Part shown: positions 3,468 to 25,019 of the stretch, one piece after another
How the letters are laid out: each line of letters opens with the position of its first letter
Numbering within the stretch: the first letter of the stretch is position 1
Notes under the pieces: generated by a model
Database searches by the model: none
Told to the model about the DNA's origin: nothing
What the model saw: the letters and a program-made list of their open reading frames with translations, nothing else
Translations under genes and position numbers: made by a program
Assembly (NCBI GenBank): GCA_018648925.1
Contig: JABGQE010000002.1
Location: 1-26,359, forward strand
Origin: a bacterium
GTDB taxonomy: Bacteria > Patescibacteriota > Minisyncoccia > Phycocordibacterales > UBA2163
Length of the DNA: 26,359 bases
Direction: 5' to 3'

Positions 3468-3549
3468 GCCGGGGTGGCGGAACTGGTATACGCGCACGAC
3501 TTAAAATCGTGTCTCGAAAGGGATGCGGGTTCGATCCCCGCCCTCGGCA
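3468..3549 (+). tRNA. tRNA-Leu (TAA)
   Basis: Acceptor GCCGGGG/CCTCGGC, anticodon arm CACGA-CTTAAAA-TCGTG, long variable arm, T arm GCGGG-TTCGATC-CCCGC, A73. Confidence 0.95.
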
Positions 3550-3561
3550 CAATTTATTGGC

Positions 3562-14828: not shown

Positions 14829-15977
14829 ATGACAACAAAAACTGAAGACTTAGAAGATAAAGTAGAAGAAACAAAAGAAGAAGATTTAATACTACAAAAG
14901 AAGACTGGGAAAAAGGATTCCGTAATGGCGAAGCTATTAAACGATAGCCCTAATCCACCCGAATCAGGAGACCTTGTTGAAGGTCCTGTTATTGGCATTG
15001 AGAAATCAAGTGTATTTATTGATTTACATCCATTCGGAACTGGTATTATTTACGGAAAAGAATTCCTACAAGCATCTGACGTACTTAGGAAAGTAAACCT
15101 TGGCGACAAGGTCGCAGCAAAAGTAGTTGACCGAACTACAAATAAAGATGGTTATATTGAACTATCTCTCAAAGAAGCTCGACAAGCACTTCTTTGGAGT
15201 GAGGCAGAGATTGCTATTGCAAATAAAAGTATTATTGAAGTCCCTGTAAAAGAAGCAAACAAAGGCGGGCTTATACTTGAATGGAAGAGCATACAAGGTT
15301 TCTTGCCTGCATCACAACTTAAAGCAGGTCATTACCCACGAGTAACAGACGGCGACAAAGATAAAATCCTAAACGAATTAAATAAATTAGTAGGTACAAA
15401 ACTTTCAGTATCTATTATCACAGCAGATCCTAAAGAAGGTAAACTTATCTTCTCTGAAAAAGATCCAGAAAAGAAAGAGAAAGAAAAGATTGTAGACAAG
15501 TATGCAGTTGGCGATGAATTAGATGGAGAAGTAACAGGTATCGTTGACTTTGGTATCTTTGTAAAGATTGAGGAGGGGCTTGAAGGGCTTGTGCACATTT
15601 CTGAGATTGAATGGGGTCTAGTAGATGATCCTAAAGCACTCTTCAAAGTAGGAGACAAAACAAAAGTTAAAATTATAGAAATCAAAGACGGTAAGATCTC
15701 ACTTTCTATAAAAGCTATGAAGGAAAACCCTTGGAAGAGCGCGATAGATAAGTATAAAAAAGATGACAGTGTTACTGGCGTTGTAATCAAATACAATAAA
15801 CACGGAGCTCTTGCTTCAATAGAAGAAGGGGTTGCAGGACTAGTACATGTGTCAGAATTTGAAAACGAAGAAGAATTACGCAATACACTTGAACTTGGGA
15901 AGACTTACAATTTCAAGATAGCAGTATTTGAACCAAAAGAACAAAAAATGACGCTTTCGTTTAAGAAAGAAGCTTAA
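14829..15977 (+). CDS. rpsA: 30S ribosomal protein bS1 (four S1 repeats)
   Basis: ANKGGLI, GFLPASQL, IVDFGIFV...EGLVHISEI and GLVHVSE S1-domain motifs. Confidence 0.93.
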   Translation: MTTKTEDLEDKVEETKEEDLILQKKTGKKDSVMAKLLNDSPNPPESGDLVEGPVIGIEKSSVFIDLHPFGTGIIYGKEFLQASDVLRKVNLGDKVAAKVVDRTTNKDGYIELSLKEARQALLWSEAEIAIANKSIIEVPVKEANKGGLILEWKSIQGFLPASQLKAGHYPRVTDGDKDKILNELNKLVGTKLSVSIITADPKEGKLIFSEKDPEKKEKEKIVDKYAVGDELDGEVTGIVDFGIFVKIEEGLEGLVHISEIEWGLVDDPKALFKVGDKTKVKIIEIKDGKISLSIKAMKENPWKSAIDKYKKDDSVTGVVIKYNKHGALASIEEGVAGLVHVSEFENEEELRNTLELGKTYNFKIAVFEPKEQKMTLSFKKEA

Positions 15978-15994
15978 CAAGACAAACAAAATAC

Positions 15995-16034
15995 AAAAAT
16001 AAACAGCTCATCTCACGATGAGCTGTTTATTTTT
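15995..16034. terminator. Bidirectional intrinsic terminator after rpsA
   Basis: Perfect 18-bp inverted repeat AAAAATAAACAGCTCATC-TCAC-GATGAGCTGTTTATTTTT. Confidence 0.88.
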
Positions 16035-16040
16035 TAATCT

Positions 16041-16061
16041 ATCCAAGGTTCGACCTTGGAT
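16041..16061. repeat. REP-like palindrome copy 1
   Basis: ATCCAAGG-TTCGA-CCTTGGAT, 14 nt beyond the CDPS stop. Confidence 0.85.
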
Positions 16062-16075
16062 TTTATAAGACAATC

Positions 16076-16780
16076 TCAGTTCACATACGCTTCAAGTATA
16101 GCTATTTCATTTGTTACCTTTAGCTTTTCAGCAATTTCTGAGAATAATGTTTTATTACTTAATCCAACTATCAATTTATCTAATTTTGTAAGTCCAGGAT
16201 ATGGAATAAGAGTATAAGTTTTCCATTCGCCATTTTTAAATTGATATTTTGTTCCATTTATAAACACAGGTATTTCGTGGAGTACATATTCTGACAGGCT
16301 CTCTAATCTTACCTCGTCTAAGTTTCTGTCAGGTCTACCTTCTTTTATTATTGAGTAGACGTAATCATGAAATTCTTTATTGTTCTTAAAAGCATCACGA
16401 ACTACTTCTAGCCTGTGTTCATGATACTTAGTCTTACTAACATCTTTCCACCTAGCTATTGTTACTTTACTGGCTTCATCTTTTGGTAGAGTTGAGAGAA
16501 TCTCTTCTATCTTCTTTTGTTTTTCATCAGCCAATCTATAAGCTCTTTTTAAAGCTCTCGCTTTAGACCGACCATCTAATATCTCTATGTTGATTGCATA
16601 AATATCGTCTGCTATTAAAACAAGAACACCATCTTTTGTGTGTTGTAGTGCCCATTCAATATATTTTCTTATATTCTCCTTAGTAAAATATTTGTTTCCA
16701 AGACTGACACCAATCCATATATTGTGTTTTTTGGATTCAACTTCATCTTTTGTTGTGTTTACATATTGTTTAATTCTCAT
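16076..16780 (-). CDS. tRNA-dependent cyclodipeptide synthase (CDPS), XYP subfamily
   Basis: IWIGVSLGNKYF (catalytic Ser plus Asn), VLIAD, RWKDV, YVLHEIP (YxxxExP with catalytic Glu) and LIPYPG (Tyr-Pro); 234 aa, typical CDPS size. Confidence 0.85.
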   Translation of the reverse strand: MRIKQYVNTTKDEVESKKHNIWIGVSLGNKYFTKENIRKYIEWALQHTKDGVLVLIADDIYAINIEILDGRSKARALKRAYRLADEKQKKIEEILSTLPKDEASKVTIARWKDVSKTKYHEHRLEVVRDAFKNNKEFHDYVYSIIKEGRPDRNLDEVRLESLSEYVLHEIPVFINGTKYQFKNGEWKTYTLIPYPGLTKLDKLIVGLSNKTLFSEIAEKLKVTNEIAILEAYVN

Positions 16781-16805
16781 ATTCCAAAATATACCATAAT
16801 ATCTA

Positions 16806-17471
16806 TTATTCTAAGGCCTTGCCTTGGATATTATTGAATTCTTCTATGAGTTCCTTGAAATCATTCAATTGAGAAAAGTGTTCTGGAAAAGAATCTTTGC
16901 TAAGAATTAGCTTATCAGACCTATCCCCTAAAAAATAATCGTGATAGCTTGAATACTTATAATCATCTATAAAATTCTTAGCTTTTGTTGGGTTAGAAAT
17001 ACCCTCTTCTTTCCAATTTGAATCAACCAATTTAACAGGATTAAGATGTATGTATGAAAACACCCAATTTAAATATTCATCAGTATCAATATGTTTTGAA
17101 TTGAATTTACTTTCAAACAATGATCCCTTTCTTTCATATTTTTTATTAAAATACATTGAGTATGCTGTTAATAATTTTTGCATAAACAAACTAATACCAC
17201 CCTCTACTCTCTCATATAAAAGAATATGAAAATGATTAGGCATTAAACAATACGCTCCAATATCAACAAGGCTTTCTCCTCTTTCTATCTCATCCAAGGC
17301 CTTGCCTTGGATTAATTTAAATATAATAGATTTACTACTATTACACACAAACAAAAGTTTTATAAACCTTCTTTTATCTGCTTCATCTAAAAAGATAGTG
17401 TTCTTTAATATCCCTCGATTATATATATGATAATGTTCACCTATTACAAAAGGAGTTTTTCTTAAAGACAT
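16806..17471 (-). CDS. REP-associated tyrosine transposase (RAYT; HUH Y1, IS200/IS605 superfamily)
   Basis: YHIYNRG, AYCLMPNHFH (HUH), SLFESKF, YIHLNPVK (catalytic Tyr) and YKYSSY. Confidence 0.92.
   Translation of the reverse strand: MSLRKTPFVIGEHYHIYNRGILKNTIFLDEADKRRFIKLLFVCNSSKSIIFKLIQGKALDEIERGESLVDIGAYCLMPNHFHILLYERVEGGISLFMQKLLTAYSMYFNKKYERKGSLFESKFNSKHIDTDEYLNWVFSYIHLNPVKLVDSNWKEEGISNPTKAKNFIDDYKYSSYHDYFLGDRSDKLILSKDSFPEHFSQLNDFKELIEEFNNIQGKALE
16810..16828. repeat. REP-like palindrome copy 2, in frame at the RAYT C-terminus
   Basis: TCTAAGG-CCTTG-CCTTGGA (one wobble); encodes IQGKALE immediately before the stop. Confidence 0.85.
17292..17312. repeat. REP-like palindrome copy 3, in frame inside RAYT
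   Basis: ATCCAAGG-CCTTG-CCTTGGAT; encodes IQGKALD upstream of the HUH strand. Confidence 0.9.
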
Positions 17472-17479
17472 GTAATAAT

Positions 17480-17508
17480 ATTATAGAGGTATATTCTGCA
17501 CATTCCAA
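17480..17508 (-). promoter_or_regulatory. Putative RAYT promoter with -35 box inside REP copy 4
   Basis: Minus strand TTGGAA-17 nt-TATAAT, 8 nt before the ATG. Confidence 0.55.
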
Positions 17509-17522
17509 GGCAAGGCCTTGGA
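17504..17522. repeat. REP-like palindrome copy 4, loop inverted relative to copies 2 and 3
   Basis: TCCAAGG-CAAGG-CCTTGGA, between the pth stop and the RAYT start. Confidence 0.9.
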
Positions 17523-17528
17523 CAACAA

Positions 17529-18119
17529 TTATCTATTAAACTCATTCATTGCATTAGACCTTCCTTCTTTTATTATCACTTCAAGCGCTTCATTTACTTT
17601 TTTGAATACTTTCTTAAGTATTTCTGTTTCTTTCTTTTTAAAGTCCCCTAATATAAAATCTATTACTTTCTGTTCTGTTTTTATTTTTTTGATTTTCCCA
17701 GATGGTGTCGCAGGTGCAATACCAACCCTTATACGAATAAAATCTTTTGTTTTTATACTACGCACGATAGACTCTATTCCTTTATGCCCACCTGACCCCC
17801 TACCAAATGAGATCTTAATCTTACCAAGTGGCATATCAAGATCATCGTAGATAACAACCAAATTCTCTGCTTTCTTTTTACTTGTAATAAGTGGCTTTAT
17901 AGAAAGTCCCGACTTATTCATAAACCCTTGTGGCAATAAAAGCTCAATTTTTTGCTTTCCTATCTTCCCTTCAGTTACAAAAGCCTTTAATTTTTTATTA
18001 TTTTCAAAAGTAGCAAGTTTATTTTTCTTTGCAAAACTTTCCACAGAAAGAGCGCCCGTGTTGTGCCGAGTGTTTTCGTATTCTTCACCTGGGTTTCCAA
18101 GTCCTACTATGTAAATCAT
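17529..18119 (-). CDS. pth: Peptidyl-tRNA hydrolase
   Basis: IVGLGNPGEEYENTRHNTG, FMNKSG, YDDLD, GSGGHKG and RIRVGI. Confidence 0.96.
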   Translation of the reverse strand: MIYIVGLGNPGEEYENTRHNTGALSVESFAKKNKLATFENNKKLKAFVTEGKIGKQKIELLLPQGFMNKSGLSIKPLITSKKKAENLVVIYDDLDMPLGKIKISFGRGSGGHKGIESIVRSIKTKDFIRIRVGIAPATPSGKIKKIKTEQKVIDFILGDFKKKETEILKKVFKKVNEALEVIIKEGRSNAMNEFNR

Positions 18120-20735: not shown

Positions 20736-21941
20736 ATGGCGCGTAATATCACAACAGGAATAGATATCGGTACATACCAAATAAAAGTGGTGGTAACAGA
20801 GTACGGTAAAAATGGAAACGGTAATATGCCTAAGATAATAGGTACCGGTTTTGCGCAATCTAAAGGTCTTCGTCATGGTTATATAATCAACCAGAACGAC
20901 ACAGTCAGAAGTATCACTACGGCAGTAGCACAAGCTGAAAAGTCAGCTGGTATAAAGATCAAAAAAGCATTCATCTCTATAGGCGGTGTAGGACTAGAGG
21001 AAGTACATTCCAAAGGAGGCGCTGTGGTTGCAAGAGCTGATTCAGAAATCACAGATTTAGATATTGAGAAAGCAATAAAAGACAGCGAGAAAAGAGTTGC
21101 ACAAAAAATCGCAAATAGAAAAATCCTACACGAAATCCCCCTTCAATACAAAATAGACGGACAAAAAGTTCTTGGTAAACCACAAGGAATGCGCGGGAGC
21201 AAAATTGAATTAGACGTACTTTTTGTTACGTGTCTTGAGCAACATTTAAATGACCTCATCTCATCTGTAGAAGATGCTGGTATCGTAGTAGAAGACGTGA
21301 TGGCGTCCCCTTTGGCTGGAAGTTTTGTCACATTAAGTCGAGCGCAAAAAGTAGCAGGCTCTGTACTTGCAAACATAGGGGCTGAGACTGTCTCTATAGT
21401 AGTATTTGAAAACAATATGCCTGTATCACTTAAAGTATTTTCAATTGGTGGGACAGATATAACAAACGATATAGCCCTAGGACTTAAGATCCCTCTTGAT
21501 CAAGCAGAGCGGGTAAAAACAGGTGCTCTCTCTGGTGCTGAATTCCCACAGAAAAAGCTAGACGAAATCATAAGCGCAAGACTTTCTGATATATTTGAAC
21601 TTATTGAATCGCATTTAAAAAAGATTGGCAAAAACGGATTACTCCCTGCAGGGATTATAATCACAGGTGGTGGCTCAGGCATAGCAACTATAGAAGACCT
21701 TGCACGCGCCGCACTTAAGCTTCCTTCAAAAACTTCTTCTGGTTTTGTCGGCGACAATGTCCTGCCTGCCGGCAGGCAGGGATCAGTAGTAGTACAAGGA
21801 AACGTACGGGACTCTTCATGGGCAGTTGCATACGGACTTTGTATCTGGGGACTCTCAACTGAGGAAGATGGCGTAGGAGTAAAGCTTGCAAAACAAACTG
21901 GTGGAAGCATCGTGCAGTGGGTAAAGCAATTTTTGCCATAA
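20736..21941 (+). CDS. ftsA: Cell division protein FtsA
   Basis: GIDIGT, KGLRHGYI, ANIGAETV, IIITGGGS and a C-terminal amphipathic helix; directly upstream of ftsZ. Confidence 0.95.
   Translation: MARNITTGIDIGTYQIKVVVTEYGKNGNGNMPKIIGTGFAQSKGLRHGYIINQNDTVRSITTAVAQAEKSAGIKIKKAFISIGGVGLEEVHSKGGAVVARADSEITDLDIEKAIKDSEKRVAQKIANRKILHEIPLQYKIDGQKVLGKPQGMRGSKIELDVLFVTCLEQHLNDLISSVEDAGIVVEDVMASPLAGSFVTLSRAQKVAGSVLANIGAETVSIVVFENNMPVSLKVFSIGGTDITNDIALGLKIPLDQAERVKTGALSGAEFPQKKLDEIISARLSDIFELIESHLKKIGKNGLLPAGIIITGGGSGIATIEDLARAALKLPSKTSSGFVGDNVLPAGRQGSVVVQGNVRDSSWAVAYGLCIWGLSTEEDGVGVKLAKQTGGSIVQWVKQFLP
21761..21780. repeat. Perfect 20-bp palindrome in frame within ftsA
   Basis: CCTGCCTGCC-GGCAGGCAGG, GC-rich against an AT-rich background; read as (V)LPAGRQ(G). 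Confidence 0.9.
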
Positions 21942-24266: not shown

Positions 24267-24293
24267 TAACAGCGAGGTTGAACCTCGCTGTTA
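24267..24293. repeat. 27-bp palindrome between convergent trxB and truB, with AGG-N5-CCT core
   Basis: TAACAGCGAGGTT-G-AACCTCGCTGTTA, overlapping the truB stop; no clear U tract. Confidence 0.8.
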
Positions 24294-25019
24294 GATTTTG
24301 ATGGAGTTTTTTATATCAAAATCCCCTACTTTTGTGCGAGTAAGTCCGAGGAGTACTCCTCCTAGAGAATGTGCTATAGAACGTATGTATGTCCCACTTG
24401 ACACATTGAATTTTACTTTTGCTACAAAATATTTATTTTCTTTATTCAAAACCTCTTGCCATTTATTTAAAATCTCTTCTTGTCTAAAATCCCCTTTTAC
24501 TAAGTTAATTTTTTCTGTAATTTTCTTGAGTAATTCTTCAGAACTTACCTCATAAGAATCCAAAACTTCAGTATCATGAATCTGTGTTGTTCGCTCTGGT
24601 ATTTCTATCTCGTCTAATTTCCCCTCCCTAGCCCACATAAAAAGAGGTTTACCATTTATCTTATATGAAGAATACGATGGAAGTGGTAATGAGATTTCGC
24701 CTTTTAAATTTCCTATCTCTCTTTTAGCACTTTCAAGCGTTTTCTTGAATACCTCAACCGGTTGAGGTATTCCCAAAATATCATACGTATCTGTCTCAAA
24801 TCCAAAAAGCATCTCTGCTTCATACTCTTTATCAAGCTTCATATATTCTTCTTTCTTATGTACTTCTTCTCCTGCAAGCAAAAGTAAGACTCCTTCTGCC
24901 AATGGATCTAACCGCCCAGCGTACGTTACTGACACACCTCTGTATTCAGGATTTTTCTCTTGCAAAAGCTTGATTACATCAAGCGGTGATATCCCTACTG
25001 GTTTGTAAACATTTATCAT
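24291..25019 (-). CDS. truB: TruB-family pseudouridine synthase, variant active-site motif, no PUA domain
   Basis: NVYKPVG, YAGRLDPLAEGVL (catalytic Asp), DKEYEA, GFETDTYD, PSYSSYKINGKPL and VSSGTYIRSI. Confidence 0.8.
   Translation of the reverse strand: MINVYKPVGISPLDVIKLLQEKNPEYRGVSVTYAGRLDPLAEGVLLLLAGEEVHKKEEYMKLDKEYEAEMLFGFETDTYDILGIPQPVEVFKKTLESAKREIGNLKGEISLPLPSYSSYKINGKPLFMWAREGKLDEIEIPERTTQIHDTEVLDSYEVSSEELLKKITEKINLVKGDFRQEEILNKWQEVLNKENKYFVAKVKFNVSSGTYIRSIAHSLGGVLLGLTRTKVGDFDIKNSIKI

What the first reader, a model, noticed from the sequence alone, without database searches (positions are those of the whole stretch)
16806..17312. The transposase gene contains its own putative target palindrome twice, in frame, as the peptide IQGKAL
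Copies 2 and 3 lie in the same orientation and reading frame, giving IQGKALD in the variable region before the HUH strand and IQGKALE at the C-terminus. These hairpins also lack a shared GTAG/GTGG-type tetranucleotide at the foot, which defines canonical REPs; flanks differ in every copy. This points to a distinct REP class and possibly self-targeting, where the enzyme could nick its own gene and excise the 482-bp interval between the copies as a self-limiting switch.
Basis: partly seen in the sequence, partly recalled or inferred. Interest (0 to 1): 0.75.

Follow-up and report, generated by a model that had tools for sequence, protein, structure and literature searches.

The report
Transposase-like gene carrying its own hairpins
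A small DNA-cutting, transposase-like gene of a tiny-genome marine bacterium carries its own private DNA hairpin in its promoter, in frame inside its coding sequence and on its last codons; this is a conserved layout in its gene family, not a one-off self-destruct switch, and a similar layout is already published for a related subclass.

Summary
Gene 16806-17471 (-) is an intact RAYT-like Y1/HUH nuclease: HUH at H80/H82, Tyr140, and a fold closest to PDB 4ER8.

A 19-21 nt palindrome (TCCAAGGC-NNN-GCCTTGGA) occurs three times, and nowhere else in the 506-kb genome:
- over the -35 box of the promoter (17504-17522);
- in frame as codons 54-60 (17292-17312);
- on the last codons (16810-16828, one mismatch).

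- Five of the seven paralogues in this genome carry their own, different hairpin at both the upstream and the internal site.
- The orthologues in two sister species carry a changed hairpin at all three sites.
- About 25 of 87 family members carry a matching internal hairpin.
- The internal hairpin adds no length, so it is a maintained DNA-level feature.

The self-excision idea has no support.
- No deletion form appears in four metagenome runs, though these are contigs only.
- No clear truncated stub appears among 90 matches in 61 genomes.
- The 3' copy is degenerate.
- Relative loop orientation varies between genes.

I read the hairpins as the enzyme's own recognition sites, in a REPtron-like unit. 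In-frame REPs inside tnpAREP genes were already published for subclass 2.4 (PMC6006769). This scan has also reported the same layout in at least seven other Patescibacteria genomes. I class it as a new variant of a known kind, of moderate interest.

The parts
16806..17471 (-). RAYT-like Y1/HUH nuclease gene, 221 aa, intact
   Evidence: ORF. Pfam Y1_Tnp scores 34.7 bits against a cutoff of 23. The AF2 model has pLDDT 93.8 and its best PDB match is 4ER8_A.
17504..17522 (-). Upstream copy of the private hairpin (8-bp stem, loop CTT in gene sense). Its 3' arm holds the -35 box.
   Evidence: Folds at -8.0 kcal/mol, z -4.7.
17480..17508 (-). Best sigma-70-like promoter of the region: TTGGAA, 17-nt spacer, TATAAT. 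The -10 box ends 8 nt before the ATG, implying a leaderless or near-leaderless mRNA.
   Evidence: 10 of 12 matches. The same spacing recurs across the family.
17292..17312 (-). Internal copy of the hairpin (9-bp stem, loop AAG in gene sense), translated as I54-D60 (IQGKALD).
   Evidence: In the model it lies between helix 51-54 and strand 69-76.
17226..17234 (-). HUH motif, codons H80-F81-H82.
   Evidence: Invariant in the alignments.
17052..17054 (-). Catalytic tyrosine Y140 in the motif YIHLNP.
   Evidence: Invariant in the 7 paralogues and at least 90% conserved in 67 sequences. The Y---NP signature of class 2 is given in PMC6006769.
16810..16828 (-). 3' copy of the hairpin with one mismatch, translated as the last codons (IQGKALE), followed by the stop codon.
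   Evidence: It is a weak fold at -3.3 kcal/mol.
16042..16060 (.). Solo hairpin of a related subtype (TCCAAGGT-TCG-ACCTTGGA). It is identical to the hairpin of the RAYT genes in loci L018 and L029. It bounds the CDPS gene on the far side.
   Evidence: Folds at -8.2 kcal/mol, z -6.3.
16076..16780 (-). Neighbouring cyclodipeptide synthase gene. It lies between hairpins 16042 and 16810 and was not found at this site in any same-genus genome searched.
   Evidence: Pfam CDPS at 1.3e-17. Synteny.

Best explanation
The gene encodes an intact RAYT-like single-strand DNA nuclease of the Y1/HUH type. The three palindromes are copies of its own cognate hairpin. Together they form a REPtron-like unit in which the hairpin sits at three fixed stations:
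1. over the -35 box of the gene's leaderless promoter;
2. in frame between helix A and the HUH strand;
3. across the last codons.

Shown here:
- The layout is a trait of this Patescibacteria gene family.
- Each gene uses its own hairpin sequence.
- All copies change together, with compensatory base changes.
- The internal copy adds no length to the protein.
- Presence or absence of the whole gene in sister species is bounded by the hairpins.

Inferred:
- The enzyme binds, and perhaps nicks, these hairpins when the DNA is single-stranded.
- The copies are kept alike because all must fit the same protein, or because a hairpin-limited copying process homogenises them.
- The promoter and intragenic copies give the enzyme a handle on its own expression.
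- The outer copies define the ends at which the unit is gained or lost.

The peptide IQGKAL is simply what this palindrome spells in that frame.
For: Enzyme identity:
- Pfam Y1_Tnp match.
- HUH and Tyr140 are conserved.
- The AF2 model has pLDDT 93.8.
- The best PDB match is the E. coli RAYT-REP complex 4ER8, E 2.3e-6, followed by the IS608 and ISDra2 TnpA structures.

Private hairpin: the motif occurs only at this gene in the 506-kb genome.

Co-variation:
- Seven paralogues of 31-61% identity each have a different hairpin upstream. Five repeat it inside at about +155 to +175 nt, and most repeat it downstream.
- The orthologues in G005 and G006 sit at the same site with 77% nucleotide identity. 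They carry GTACAAGGG-NNN-CCCTTGTAC at all three stations, which means three compensated pair changes relative to this window.
- In 80 further loci, the internal hairpin matches the gene's own flank in 21 of 76 genes, against 2.6% for foreign flanks.
- 16 of 18 perfect internal hairpins match their own flank.
- GC-containing hairpins occur in only 4 of 435 other 90-nt windows of these genes.

Not an insertion: the variable segment averages 48.9 aa with the internal hairpin and 48.5 aa without it.

Promoter overlap:
- The best promoter has its -35 box inside the hairpin arm.
- In 46 of 72 loci the -35 box lies in the hairpin, and the -10 box mostly ends 6-8 nt before the ATG.

Ends of the unit: at the exact site and with the same flanks, G009 has one solo hairpin and no gene. 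G003, G001 and G007 have neither.

The downstream hairpin overlaps the ORF end in 36 of 61 genes.
Against: - No biochemical or expression data exist. Binding, nicking and autoregulation are all inferences.
- NCBIfam REP_Tyr_transpos scores 42 bits against a cutoff of 80.
- Only about 25-30% of homologues keep the internal copy. On the tree this trait needs at least 8-17 changes, so it is dispensable.
- Loop orientation is not conserved, even between the G005 and G006 orthologues. That fits a passive gene-conversion process as well as it fits function.
- The 3' copy in this window is degenerate.
- An earlier report in this scan proposed a rule linking a protein residue to a hairpin base pair. 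Its later check failed (e1-788396).
Confidence: 0.6

Rival explanations
1. Self-limiting switch. The enzyme nicks at the internal and 3' hairpins and excises the 483-bp interval. This leaves a 60-codon stub that lacks HUH and Tyr.
For: The two copies are in the same orientation and frame, 483 nt apart. Y1 enzymes excise DNA between two hairpins on one strand; this is established for IS608 and ISDra2, whose structures are among the fold matches. The whole gene is lost or gained at hairpin boundaries in G009, so hairpin-to-hairpin events do occur in this lineage.
Against: - No deletion joint appears in four runs spanning 2012-2019, each of which holds the intact stretch with 0 differences (contigs only).
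- 88 of 90 N-terminal matches in 61 genomes lie in full-length frames.
- The one 99-aa case is a frameshift, not a deletion.
- The 3' copy is a weak hairpin.
- Internal and 3' loops are inverted relative to each other in about a third of the genes.
- In paralogue C17 the 3' copy is out of frame.
Confidence: 0.08
2. Neutral by-product. The cognate hairpin spreads locally and landed, or arose, in a tolerant surface segment of the gene. Gene conversion between the nearby palindromes keeps the copies alike. The internal copy does nothing.
For: - The internal copy is missing in about 70% of homologues and was gained or lost many times.
- Loop flips between close orthologues are what conversion between palindromes in either alignment would give.
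- In-frame palindromes also sit in other genes of this genome, namely the ligA-like and ftsA genes.
- In-frame REPs in unrelated genes are known (PMC3733652).
Against: - The internal copy lies at the same site in paralogues of only 31-39% identity and in many clades.
- It adds no length.
- Hairpins are about 25-fold enriched at that site over the rest of the gene.
- Identity ends exactly at the hairpin foot. That is a short tract for ordinary homologous conversion.
- The segment is well ordered in the model, with pLDDT 96.
Confidence: 0.22
3. RNA-level element. The internal and 3' hairpins act in the mRNA, for example as a translation pause, a decay barrier or a terminator, and not as DNA sites for the enzyme.
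For: REPs downstream of genes are known to act in RNA (PMC3733652). The 3' copy sits at the stop codon in most family members.
Against: - With the predicted leaderless start, the upstream copy is not transcribed with the gene, yet it co-varies with the others.
- No T-run follows the internal or 3' copy in gene sense.
- An RNA role would not require three identical sequences that are specific to each paralogue.
Confidence: 0.08
4. Protein-level motif. IQGKAL-like peptides are conserved for protein function, and the palindromes are a side effect of the codons.
For: Homologues without a perfect palindrome have similar peptides at the site, such as QNQPL and QNKPL.
Against: - The peptides at this site differ completely between paralogues (IQGKALD, FNKGLSFIE, YVKHSVFNI and others).
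- In each gene the DNA matches the non-coding flanks of the same gene.
- The same sequence also occurs untranslated upstream of the gene.
Confidence: 0.02

Closest known systems
REPtrons: RAYT/TnpAREP genes flanked by their cognate REPs (E. coli YafM, Pseudomonas, Stenotrophomonas; PMC2817692, PMC3116915, PMC6006769; structure 4ER8)
   Same: A Y1/HUH enzyme with the Y---NP signature. The gene is flanked on both sides by a palindrome specific to that gene. Several paralogues in one genome each have their own palindrome family. The fold is closest to 4ER8.
   Different: There is no GT[AG]G foot. There are 3 copies per genome instead of tens to hundreds, and 7 paralogues in a 0.5-Mb genome. The hairpin overlaps the -35 box, and one copy lies inside the ORF.
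Subclass 2.4 tnpAREP genes with REPs inserted in frame inside the gene (Quentin et al. 2018, PMC6006769)
   Same: The cognate REP lies inside the transposase-like gene itself without breaking the reading frame. This is the published precedent for the core of the finding.
   Different: [quoted passage not shown] Here the site is before HuH, between helix A and strand 2. No length is added and there is no tag. The protein motifs (NHFH, FE/FQ, YIHLNP, SS) fit subclass 2.1, for which that paper found no REPs.
IS200/IS605 insertion sequences (IS608, ISDra2)
   Same: A Y1/HUH enzyme that reads subterminal hairpins on single-stranded DNA. The unit is bounded by hairpins. The empty site and the filled site differ exactly at a hairpin.
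   Different: There are no identical copies; the paralogues share 31-61% identity. The motif is Y---NP rather than Y---Q. No tnpB gene was noticed next to it. The hairpins are near-perfect palindromes without evident guide and target tetranucleotides.
In-frame palindromic repeats in genes (Rickettsia RPEs; intragenic REPs, PMC3733652)
   Same: Palindromic repeats are translated in frame in functional genes. Here this is also seen in a ligA-like gene and in ftsA of the same genome.
   Different: Those are insertions that add residues at varied sites. Here the copy sits at one conserved site of the enzyme's own gene and tracks the flanking copies.
HUH or Rep initiator genes that contain their own target site (phiX174 gene A origin; pT181 repC origin). 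This comparison is from my own knowledge and was not checked here.
   Same: The nuclease's recognition hairpin or nick site lies inside its own coding sequence.
   Different: Those are replication origins of phage or plasmid replicons. Nothing here indicates a replicon.

Membership tests
Y1/HUH transposase superfamily (Pfam PF01797) | Profile match above the curated cutoff | tested here: met
   34.7 bits against a cutoff of 23, residues 66-142.
Y1/HUH transposase superfamily (Pfam PF01797) | HUH motif, and a catalytic Tyr about 58-67 residues after it | tested here: met
   H80-F-H82 and Y140 are invariant or nearly invariant. The expected spacing is given in PMC6006769.
Y1/HUH transposase superfamily (Pfam PF01797) | Fold | tested here: met
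   AF2 model with pLDDT 93.8. Foldseek best hit is 4ER8_A at E 2.3e-6, followed by IS608 and ISDra2 TnpA.
RAYT / TnpAREP (class 2) | Y---NP tyrosine motif | tested here: met
   YIHLNP. The signature is defined in PMC6006769.
RAYT / TnpAREP (class 2) | NCBIfam REP_Tyr_transpos equivalog cutoff | tested here: not met
   42.3 bits against a cutoff of 80.
RAYT / TnpAREP (class 2) | Gene flanked by cognate palindromes, each paralogue with its own | tested here: met
   The upstream arm equals the downstream arm in 53 of 87 genes.
Canonical REP | GT[AG]G tetranucleotide at the hairpin foot | tested here: not met
   4 of 151 family hairpins have one, and none of the copies in this window does.
Canonical REP | High-copy, dispersed, extragenic | tested here: not met
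   Three copies, all at the gene. Other paralogues' hairpins have 2-8 copies, and sister genomes have 6-12.
Subclass 2.4 intragenic REP (PMC6006769) | [quoted passage not shown] | tested here: not met
   The site here is residues 54-60, before HuH, and there is no length difference.
Subclass 2.1 (PMC6006769) | Motifs NH[YF]H, FQ, Y[IV]HLNP, SS, and length about 238 aa | tested here: met
   NHFH, LFE/LFQ, YIHLNP and YSSY, at 221 aa, compared by eye with Table 1. The paper's own HMMs were not available.
Subclass 2.1 (PMC6006769) | No REP-like structures near the gene; C-terminal HTH-like domain | tested here: not met
   Hairpins are present at both flanks. No HTH family was reported by Pfam at E<=0.01.
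IS200/IS605 insertion sequence | Multiple near-identical copies; Y---Q motif | tested here: not met
   The paralogues share 31-61% identity. The motif is Y---NP.

The most novel reading that the evidence does not exclude
The enzyme uses the three hairpins on its own gene in two ways. They act as operators, giving promoter occlusion plus an intragenic site. They also act as substrates for a hairpin-limited strand transfer that rewrites the copies. On this reading the gene's coding sequence at codons 54-60 is periodically overwritten by its own product, which would make it a self-editing gene. The same chemistry would account for gain and loss of the whole unit, and of neighbouring cassettes such as the CDPS gene, at hairpins.
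Probability: 0.15. Interest if true: 0.8.

Novelty: new variant of a known kind. Interest (0 to 1): 0.45.

Why it matters
RAYT/REP systems are a long-standing puzzle. It is unclear what these domesticated transposases do and how REPs are copied. In this family the system is reduced to a minimum: one enzyme and three private hairpins, all on one 0.7-kb gene, in genomes of 0.5 Mb.

That makes the enzyme-hairpin relation directly testable with a handful of oligonucleotides. The seven paralogues in one genome provide natural specificity controls. The concerted, compensated change of coding and non-coding copies between sister species is a clean case for asking how palindromic repeats are homogenised.

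The finding also extends published work. Subclass-2.1-like Y1 proteins were reported to lack REPs, but their Patescibacteria relatives have them.

Tried and rejected
- Dispersed REP family: rejected for this hairpin. It has only three copies, all at the gene. The hairpin of paralogue C17 has 5 dispersed copies.
- Insertion of a REP into the gene: rejected, because there is no length difference.
- Protein motif as the cause: rejected.
- Fixed loop-orientation rule across up, internal and down copies: none found.
- Cassette-style insertion at the S1/pth junction in all relatives: rejected. G002 and G004 hold unrelated genes there without GC-rich hairpins.
- Deletion or inversion forms in reads: none seen in the contigs of four runs. 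Contigs cannot show rare forms, so this is weak evidence.
- RNA evidence: no RNA holder is listed among the runs. The first call to that tool failed.
- Truncated stubs in relatives. G039:C32 turned out to be a frameshift directly after the internal hairpin. G047:C10 is a weak match (E 0.002) near a contig end and is uninformative.
- Residual palindrome signal in genes without a perfect internal hairpin: only slightly above control windows (p 0.014). Universal ancestral presence is therefore not shown.
- Literature search for the exact layout. Only PMC6006769 describes REPs inside tnpAREP genes. Nothing was found on Patescibacteria.

Full report
**1. What is there**

The window is contig C15 of a 506-kb, 39-contig genome of 37% GC and about 93% completeness. 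Its relatives are Patescibacteria/CPR MAGs. The locus is found in marine metagenomes.

ORF 16806-17471 on the minus strand encodes 221 residues. The evidence that it is an intact Y1/HUH nuclease is as follows.
- It matches Pfam Y1_Tnp above the curated cutoff.
- It matches NCBIfam REP_Tyr_transpos only below cutoff.
- H80-F-H82 and Y140 (in YIHLNP) are invariant among the seven paralogues of this genome. In 67 family members, H80 and H82 stay invariant and Y140 is at least 90% conserved.
- An AlphaFold2 model built on that alignment is confident, with pLDDT 93.8 and pTM 0.90.
- The model's best solved neighbour is the E. coli RAYT bound to a REP hairpin (4ER8, E 2.3e-6). The IS608 and ISDra2 transposases follow.

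**2.

The palindrome TCCAAGGC-NNN-GCCTTGGA occurs at three places.
- 17504-17522, 33 nt upstream of the ATG.
- 17292-17312, codons 54-60, spelling IQGKALD.
- 16810-16828, the last seven codons, spelling IQGKALE, followed by the stop. This copy has one mismatch, which is a synonymous TTG>TTA change.

A related copy with compensatory changes lies at 16042-16060. Four matches were found where 0.03 were expected by chance. In the whole genome the motif occurs only here.

The internal and 3' copies have the same loop orientation and start 483 nt (161 codons) apart. As single-stranded DNA, the upstream copy folds at -8.0 kcal/mol and the internal copy at -9.0 kcal/mol. The 3' copy folds at only -3.3 kcal/mol on the coding strand.

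**3. The co-variation test passes at three evolutionary depths**

(a) Paralogues. The genome holds seven paralogues of this gene at 31-61% identity.
- Each has a different perfect hairpin 20-50 nt upstream of its start.
- Five of the seven repeat that same hairpin inside the ORF at about +155 to +175 nt.
- Most repeat it again at or after the stop.

(b) Orthologues. Sister species G005 and G006 have the orthologue at the same chromosomal site, with 77% nucleotide identity.
- There, all three stations read GTACAAGGG-NNN-CCCTTGTAC.
- Relative to this window that is three base pairs changed on both arms, at all three stations.
- The surrounding codons align colinearly.

(c) Wider family. I examined 80 further loci from other Patescibacteria at 40-57% identity.
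- Most genes have their own hairpin at -30 to -65 nt and again at the stop. The upstream arm equals the downstream arm in 53 of the 87 genes.
- 21 of 76 genes have an internal copy matching their own flank, against 2.6% for foreign flanks.
- 16 of 18 perfect internal GC hairpins match their own flank.
- Such hairpins occur in only 4 of 435 other 90-nt windows of these genes.

**4. The internal copy is not an insertion or a protein motif**

The segment between helix A and the HUH strand averages 48.9 residues with the internal hairpin and 48.5 without it. The peptides at the site differ completely between paralogues, yet in each case the DNA matches the non-coding flanks of the same gene. The peptide is therefore just the translation of the palindrome.

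In the model, the segment (residues 54-60) lies between a short helix and strand 69-76 and is well ordered, with pLDDT 96. The C-terminal copy lies at the poorly predicted end of the last helix.

On a maximum-likelihood tree of 87 proteins, the internal hairpin (25 genes) needs at least 17 changes, of which at least 8 are forced by well-supported branches. It is nevertheless clustered, since only 4 of 500 label shuffles score as low. It is present in deep-branching paralogues and absent from a whole 18-member clade. Genes without it show only a slight residual palindrome signal. The internal copy is thus recurrent and maintained in some lineages, but dispensable.

**5. Anatomy around the gene**

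*Promoter.* The best sigma-70-like site in the region has its -35 hexamer (TTGGAA, 17508-17503) inside the 3' arm of the upstream hairpin. It has a 17-nt spacer and a consensus -10 box that ends 8 nt before the ATG. That spacing suggests a leaderless mRNA.

The arrangement recurs across the family. In 46 of 72 loci the -35 box of the best promoter falls in the hairpin. In the 21 loci where it falls in the 3' arm, the -10 box ends 6-8 nt before the ATG in 17.

*Downstream hairpin.* Among the 61 genes with a perfect downstream hairpin, it overlaps the end of the ORF in 36 and starts within 30 nt after the stop in 23 more.
- In G006 the hairpin is translated in frame, as it is in this window.
- In G005 the ORF stops at a TGA in the loop.
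- In paralogue C17 the hairpin starts at the stop codon in another frame.

The exact double peptide is therefore a frequent outcome but not a rule.

*Hairpin features.* Only 4 of 151 hairpins in the family have a GT[AG]G foot. The apex is mostly AGGN, and loops are 3 or 5 nt.

**6. Presence and absence in the genus**

The gene lies between a convergent S1-domain gene and pth. Same-genus genomes differ at this junction.
- G003, G001 and G007 have the two genes adjacent, with no REP-like hairpin.
- G009 has, at the same place and with the same flanks, one solo hairpin and no RAYT gene.
- G005 and G006 have hairpin, RAYT gene, hairpin.
- This genome additionally has a cyclodipeptide synthase gene between hairpins 16042 and 16810.
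- G002 and G004 carry unrelated genes there without such hairpins.

Gain or loss of the unit is thus bounded by the hairpins. The junction is also a generally variable spot. In sister genomes, related hairpins occur in 6-12 copies, so they are weakly dispersed.

**7. The self-excision hypothesis**

- Contigs of four marine runs (2012, 2016, 2018 and 2019) each cover 15700-17900 in one piece with no differences. None shows a joint between the hairpins. Contigs cannot reveal rare forms, and the runs may include the source sample.
- A search with the N-terminal 53 residues in 61 genomes of the order gave 90 matches. Of these, 88 lie in open frames of 214-301 residues.
- The 99-residue case (G039) is a frameshift directly after its internal hairpin, with the catalytic part still present. 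The other short case is a weak match near a contig end.
- The 3' copy is degenerate.
- Internal and 3' loops are in the same orientation in only about 10 of 15 genes that have both.

Excision remains chemically possible but has no support. It cannot be the conserved reason for the layout.

**8. How it most likely works**

*Shown:* gene-specific hairpins at three fixed stations, concerted compensated evolution, overlap with the promoter, and hairpin-bounded gain or loss.

*Inferred from established Y1/HUH biology (hairpin recognition on single-stranded DNA, as in 4ER8, IS608 and ISDra2):*
- The hairpins are the enzyme's own recognition sites.
- The three copies stay alike either because all must fit one protein or because a hairpin-limited copying process homogenises them. 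Loop flips between G005 and G006 fit a process that can align palindromes either way.
- The promoter copy is well placed for autoregulation.

I put 0.6 on this reading. I put about 0.22 on a neutral local-spread-plus-conversion account, and about 0.08 each on the excision switch and on an RNA-level role.

**9. Comparison with what is known**

RAYT genes flanked by cognate REPs, with one REP family per paralogue, are well described (PMC2817692, PMC3116915, PMC6006769). REPs translated in frame inside genes are also known (PMC3733652).

Most importantly, Quentin et al. [quoted passage not shown]

The present case differs in several respects.
- By its motifs, the protein fits their subclass 2.1, for which they found no REPs.
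- The site lies before HuH.
- No length is added.
- The hairpins lack the GTAG tag.
- The copy number is minimal.
- One copy forms part of the promoter.

This scan has already reported the same layout in at least seven other Patescibacteria genomes. One derived claim, a residue-to-base-pair specificity rule, later failed its check.

My verdict is a new variant of a known kind, of moderate interest.

Noticed in passing
window 16076-16780 (-): A stand-alone cyclodipeptide synthase gene (Pfam CDPS 1.3e-17) sits between two REP-like hairpins (16042 and 16810). No match to it at this site appeared in any same-genus genome searched, so it looks like a recent cassette-like gain next to the RAYT gene.
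   Followed up: partly
window 16042-16060: A solo hairpin, TCCAAGGT-TCG-ACCTTGGA, is identical to the private hairpin of RAYT genes in two other MAGs (L018 and L029). No matching RAYT gene was found in this genome.
   Followed up: partly
window 21761-21780; also G000 C1:55424, C29:1046, C33:2102: A 20-nt GC-rich palindrome (CCTGCCTGCCGGCAGGCAGG) recurs four times in the genome, several times inside long ORFs. Similar palindromes flank RAYT loci L069 and L075.
   Followed up: no
G000 C27:16079-16122: Two adjacent palindromes lie in frame in a ligA-like ORF, just before its BRCT-like end. One shares the 13-nt apex AAGGCCTTGCCTT with this window's hairpin but has a different lower stem.
   Followed up: no
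window 24267-24293 and 24747-24772: Further perfect hairpins occur here. The second belongs to a five-copy family (ACCTCAAC-NNNN-GTTGAGGT) and lies inside an ORF.
   Followed up: no
L102 (G039:C32) 618-655: A homologue is frameshifted directly after its internal hairpin. The N-terminal part is in one frame and the catalytic part in another. This could be a pseudogene, an assembly error or slippage at the hairpin.
   Followed up: partly
L091 (G005:C10) about 3537-3551: In the G005 orthologue the stop codon is the TGA in the loop of the downstream hairpin. That hairpin's two arms are of two different subtypes (TCCAAGGG / CCCTTGTA), as if it were chimeric.
   Followed up: no
window 15700-17900: The whole stretch is identical (0 differences) in contigs of marine metagenome runs dated 2012, 2016, 2018 and 2019. 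The population therefore looks very stable, unless the runs share a source.
   Followed up: no
G000 C17:14273-15007 and C1:54775, C9:3590, C23:17984, C27:20744, C28:15878: The hairpin of the closest paralogue (61% identity) has five extra dispersed copies, unlike the hairpin of this window's gene.
   Followed up: partly
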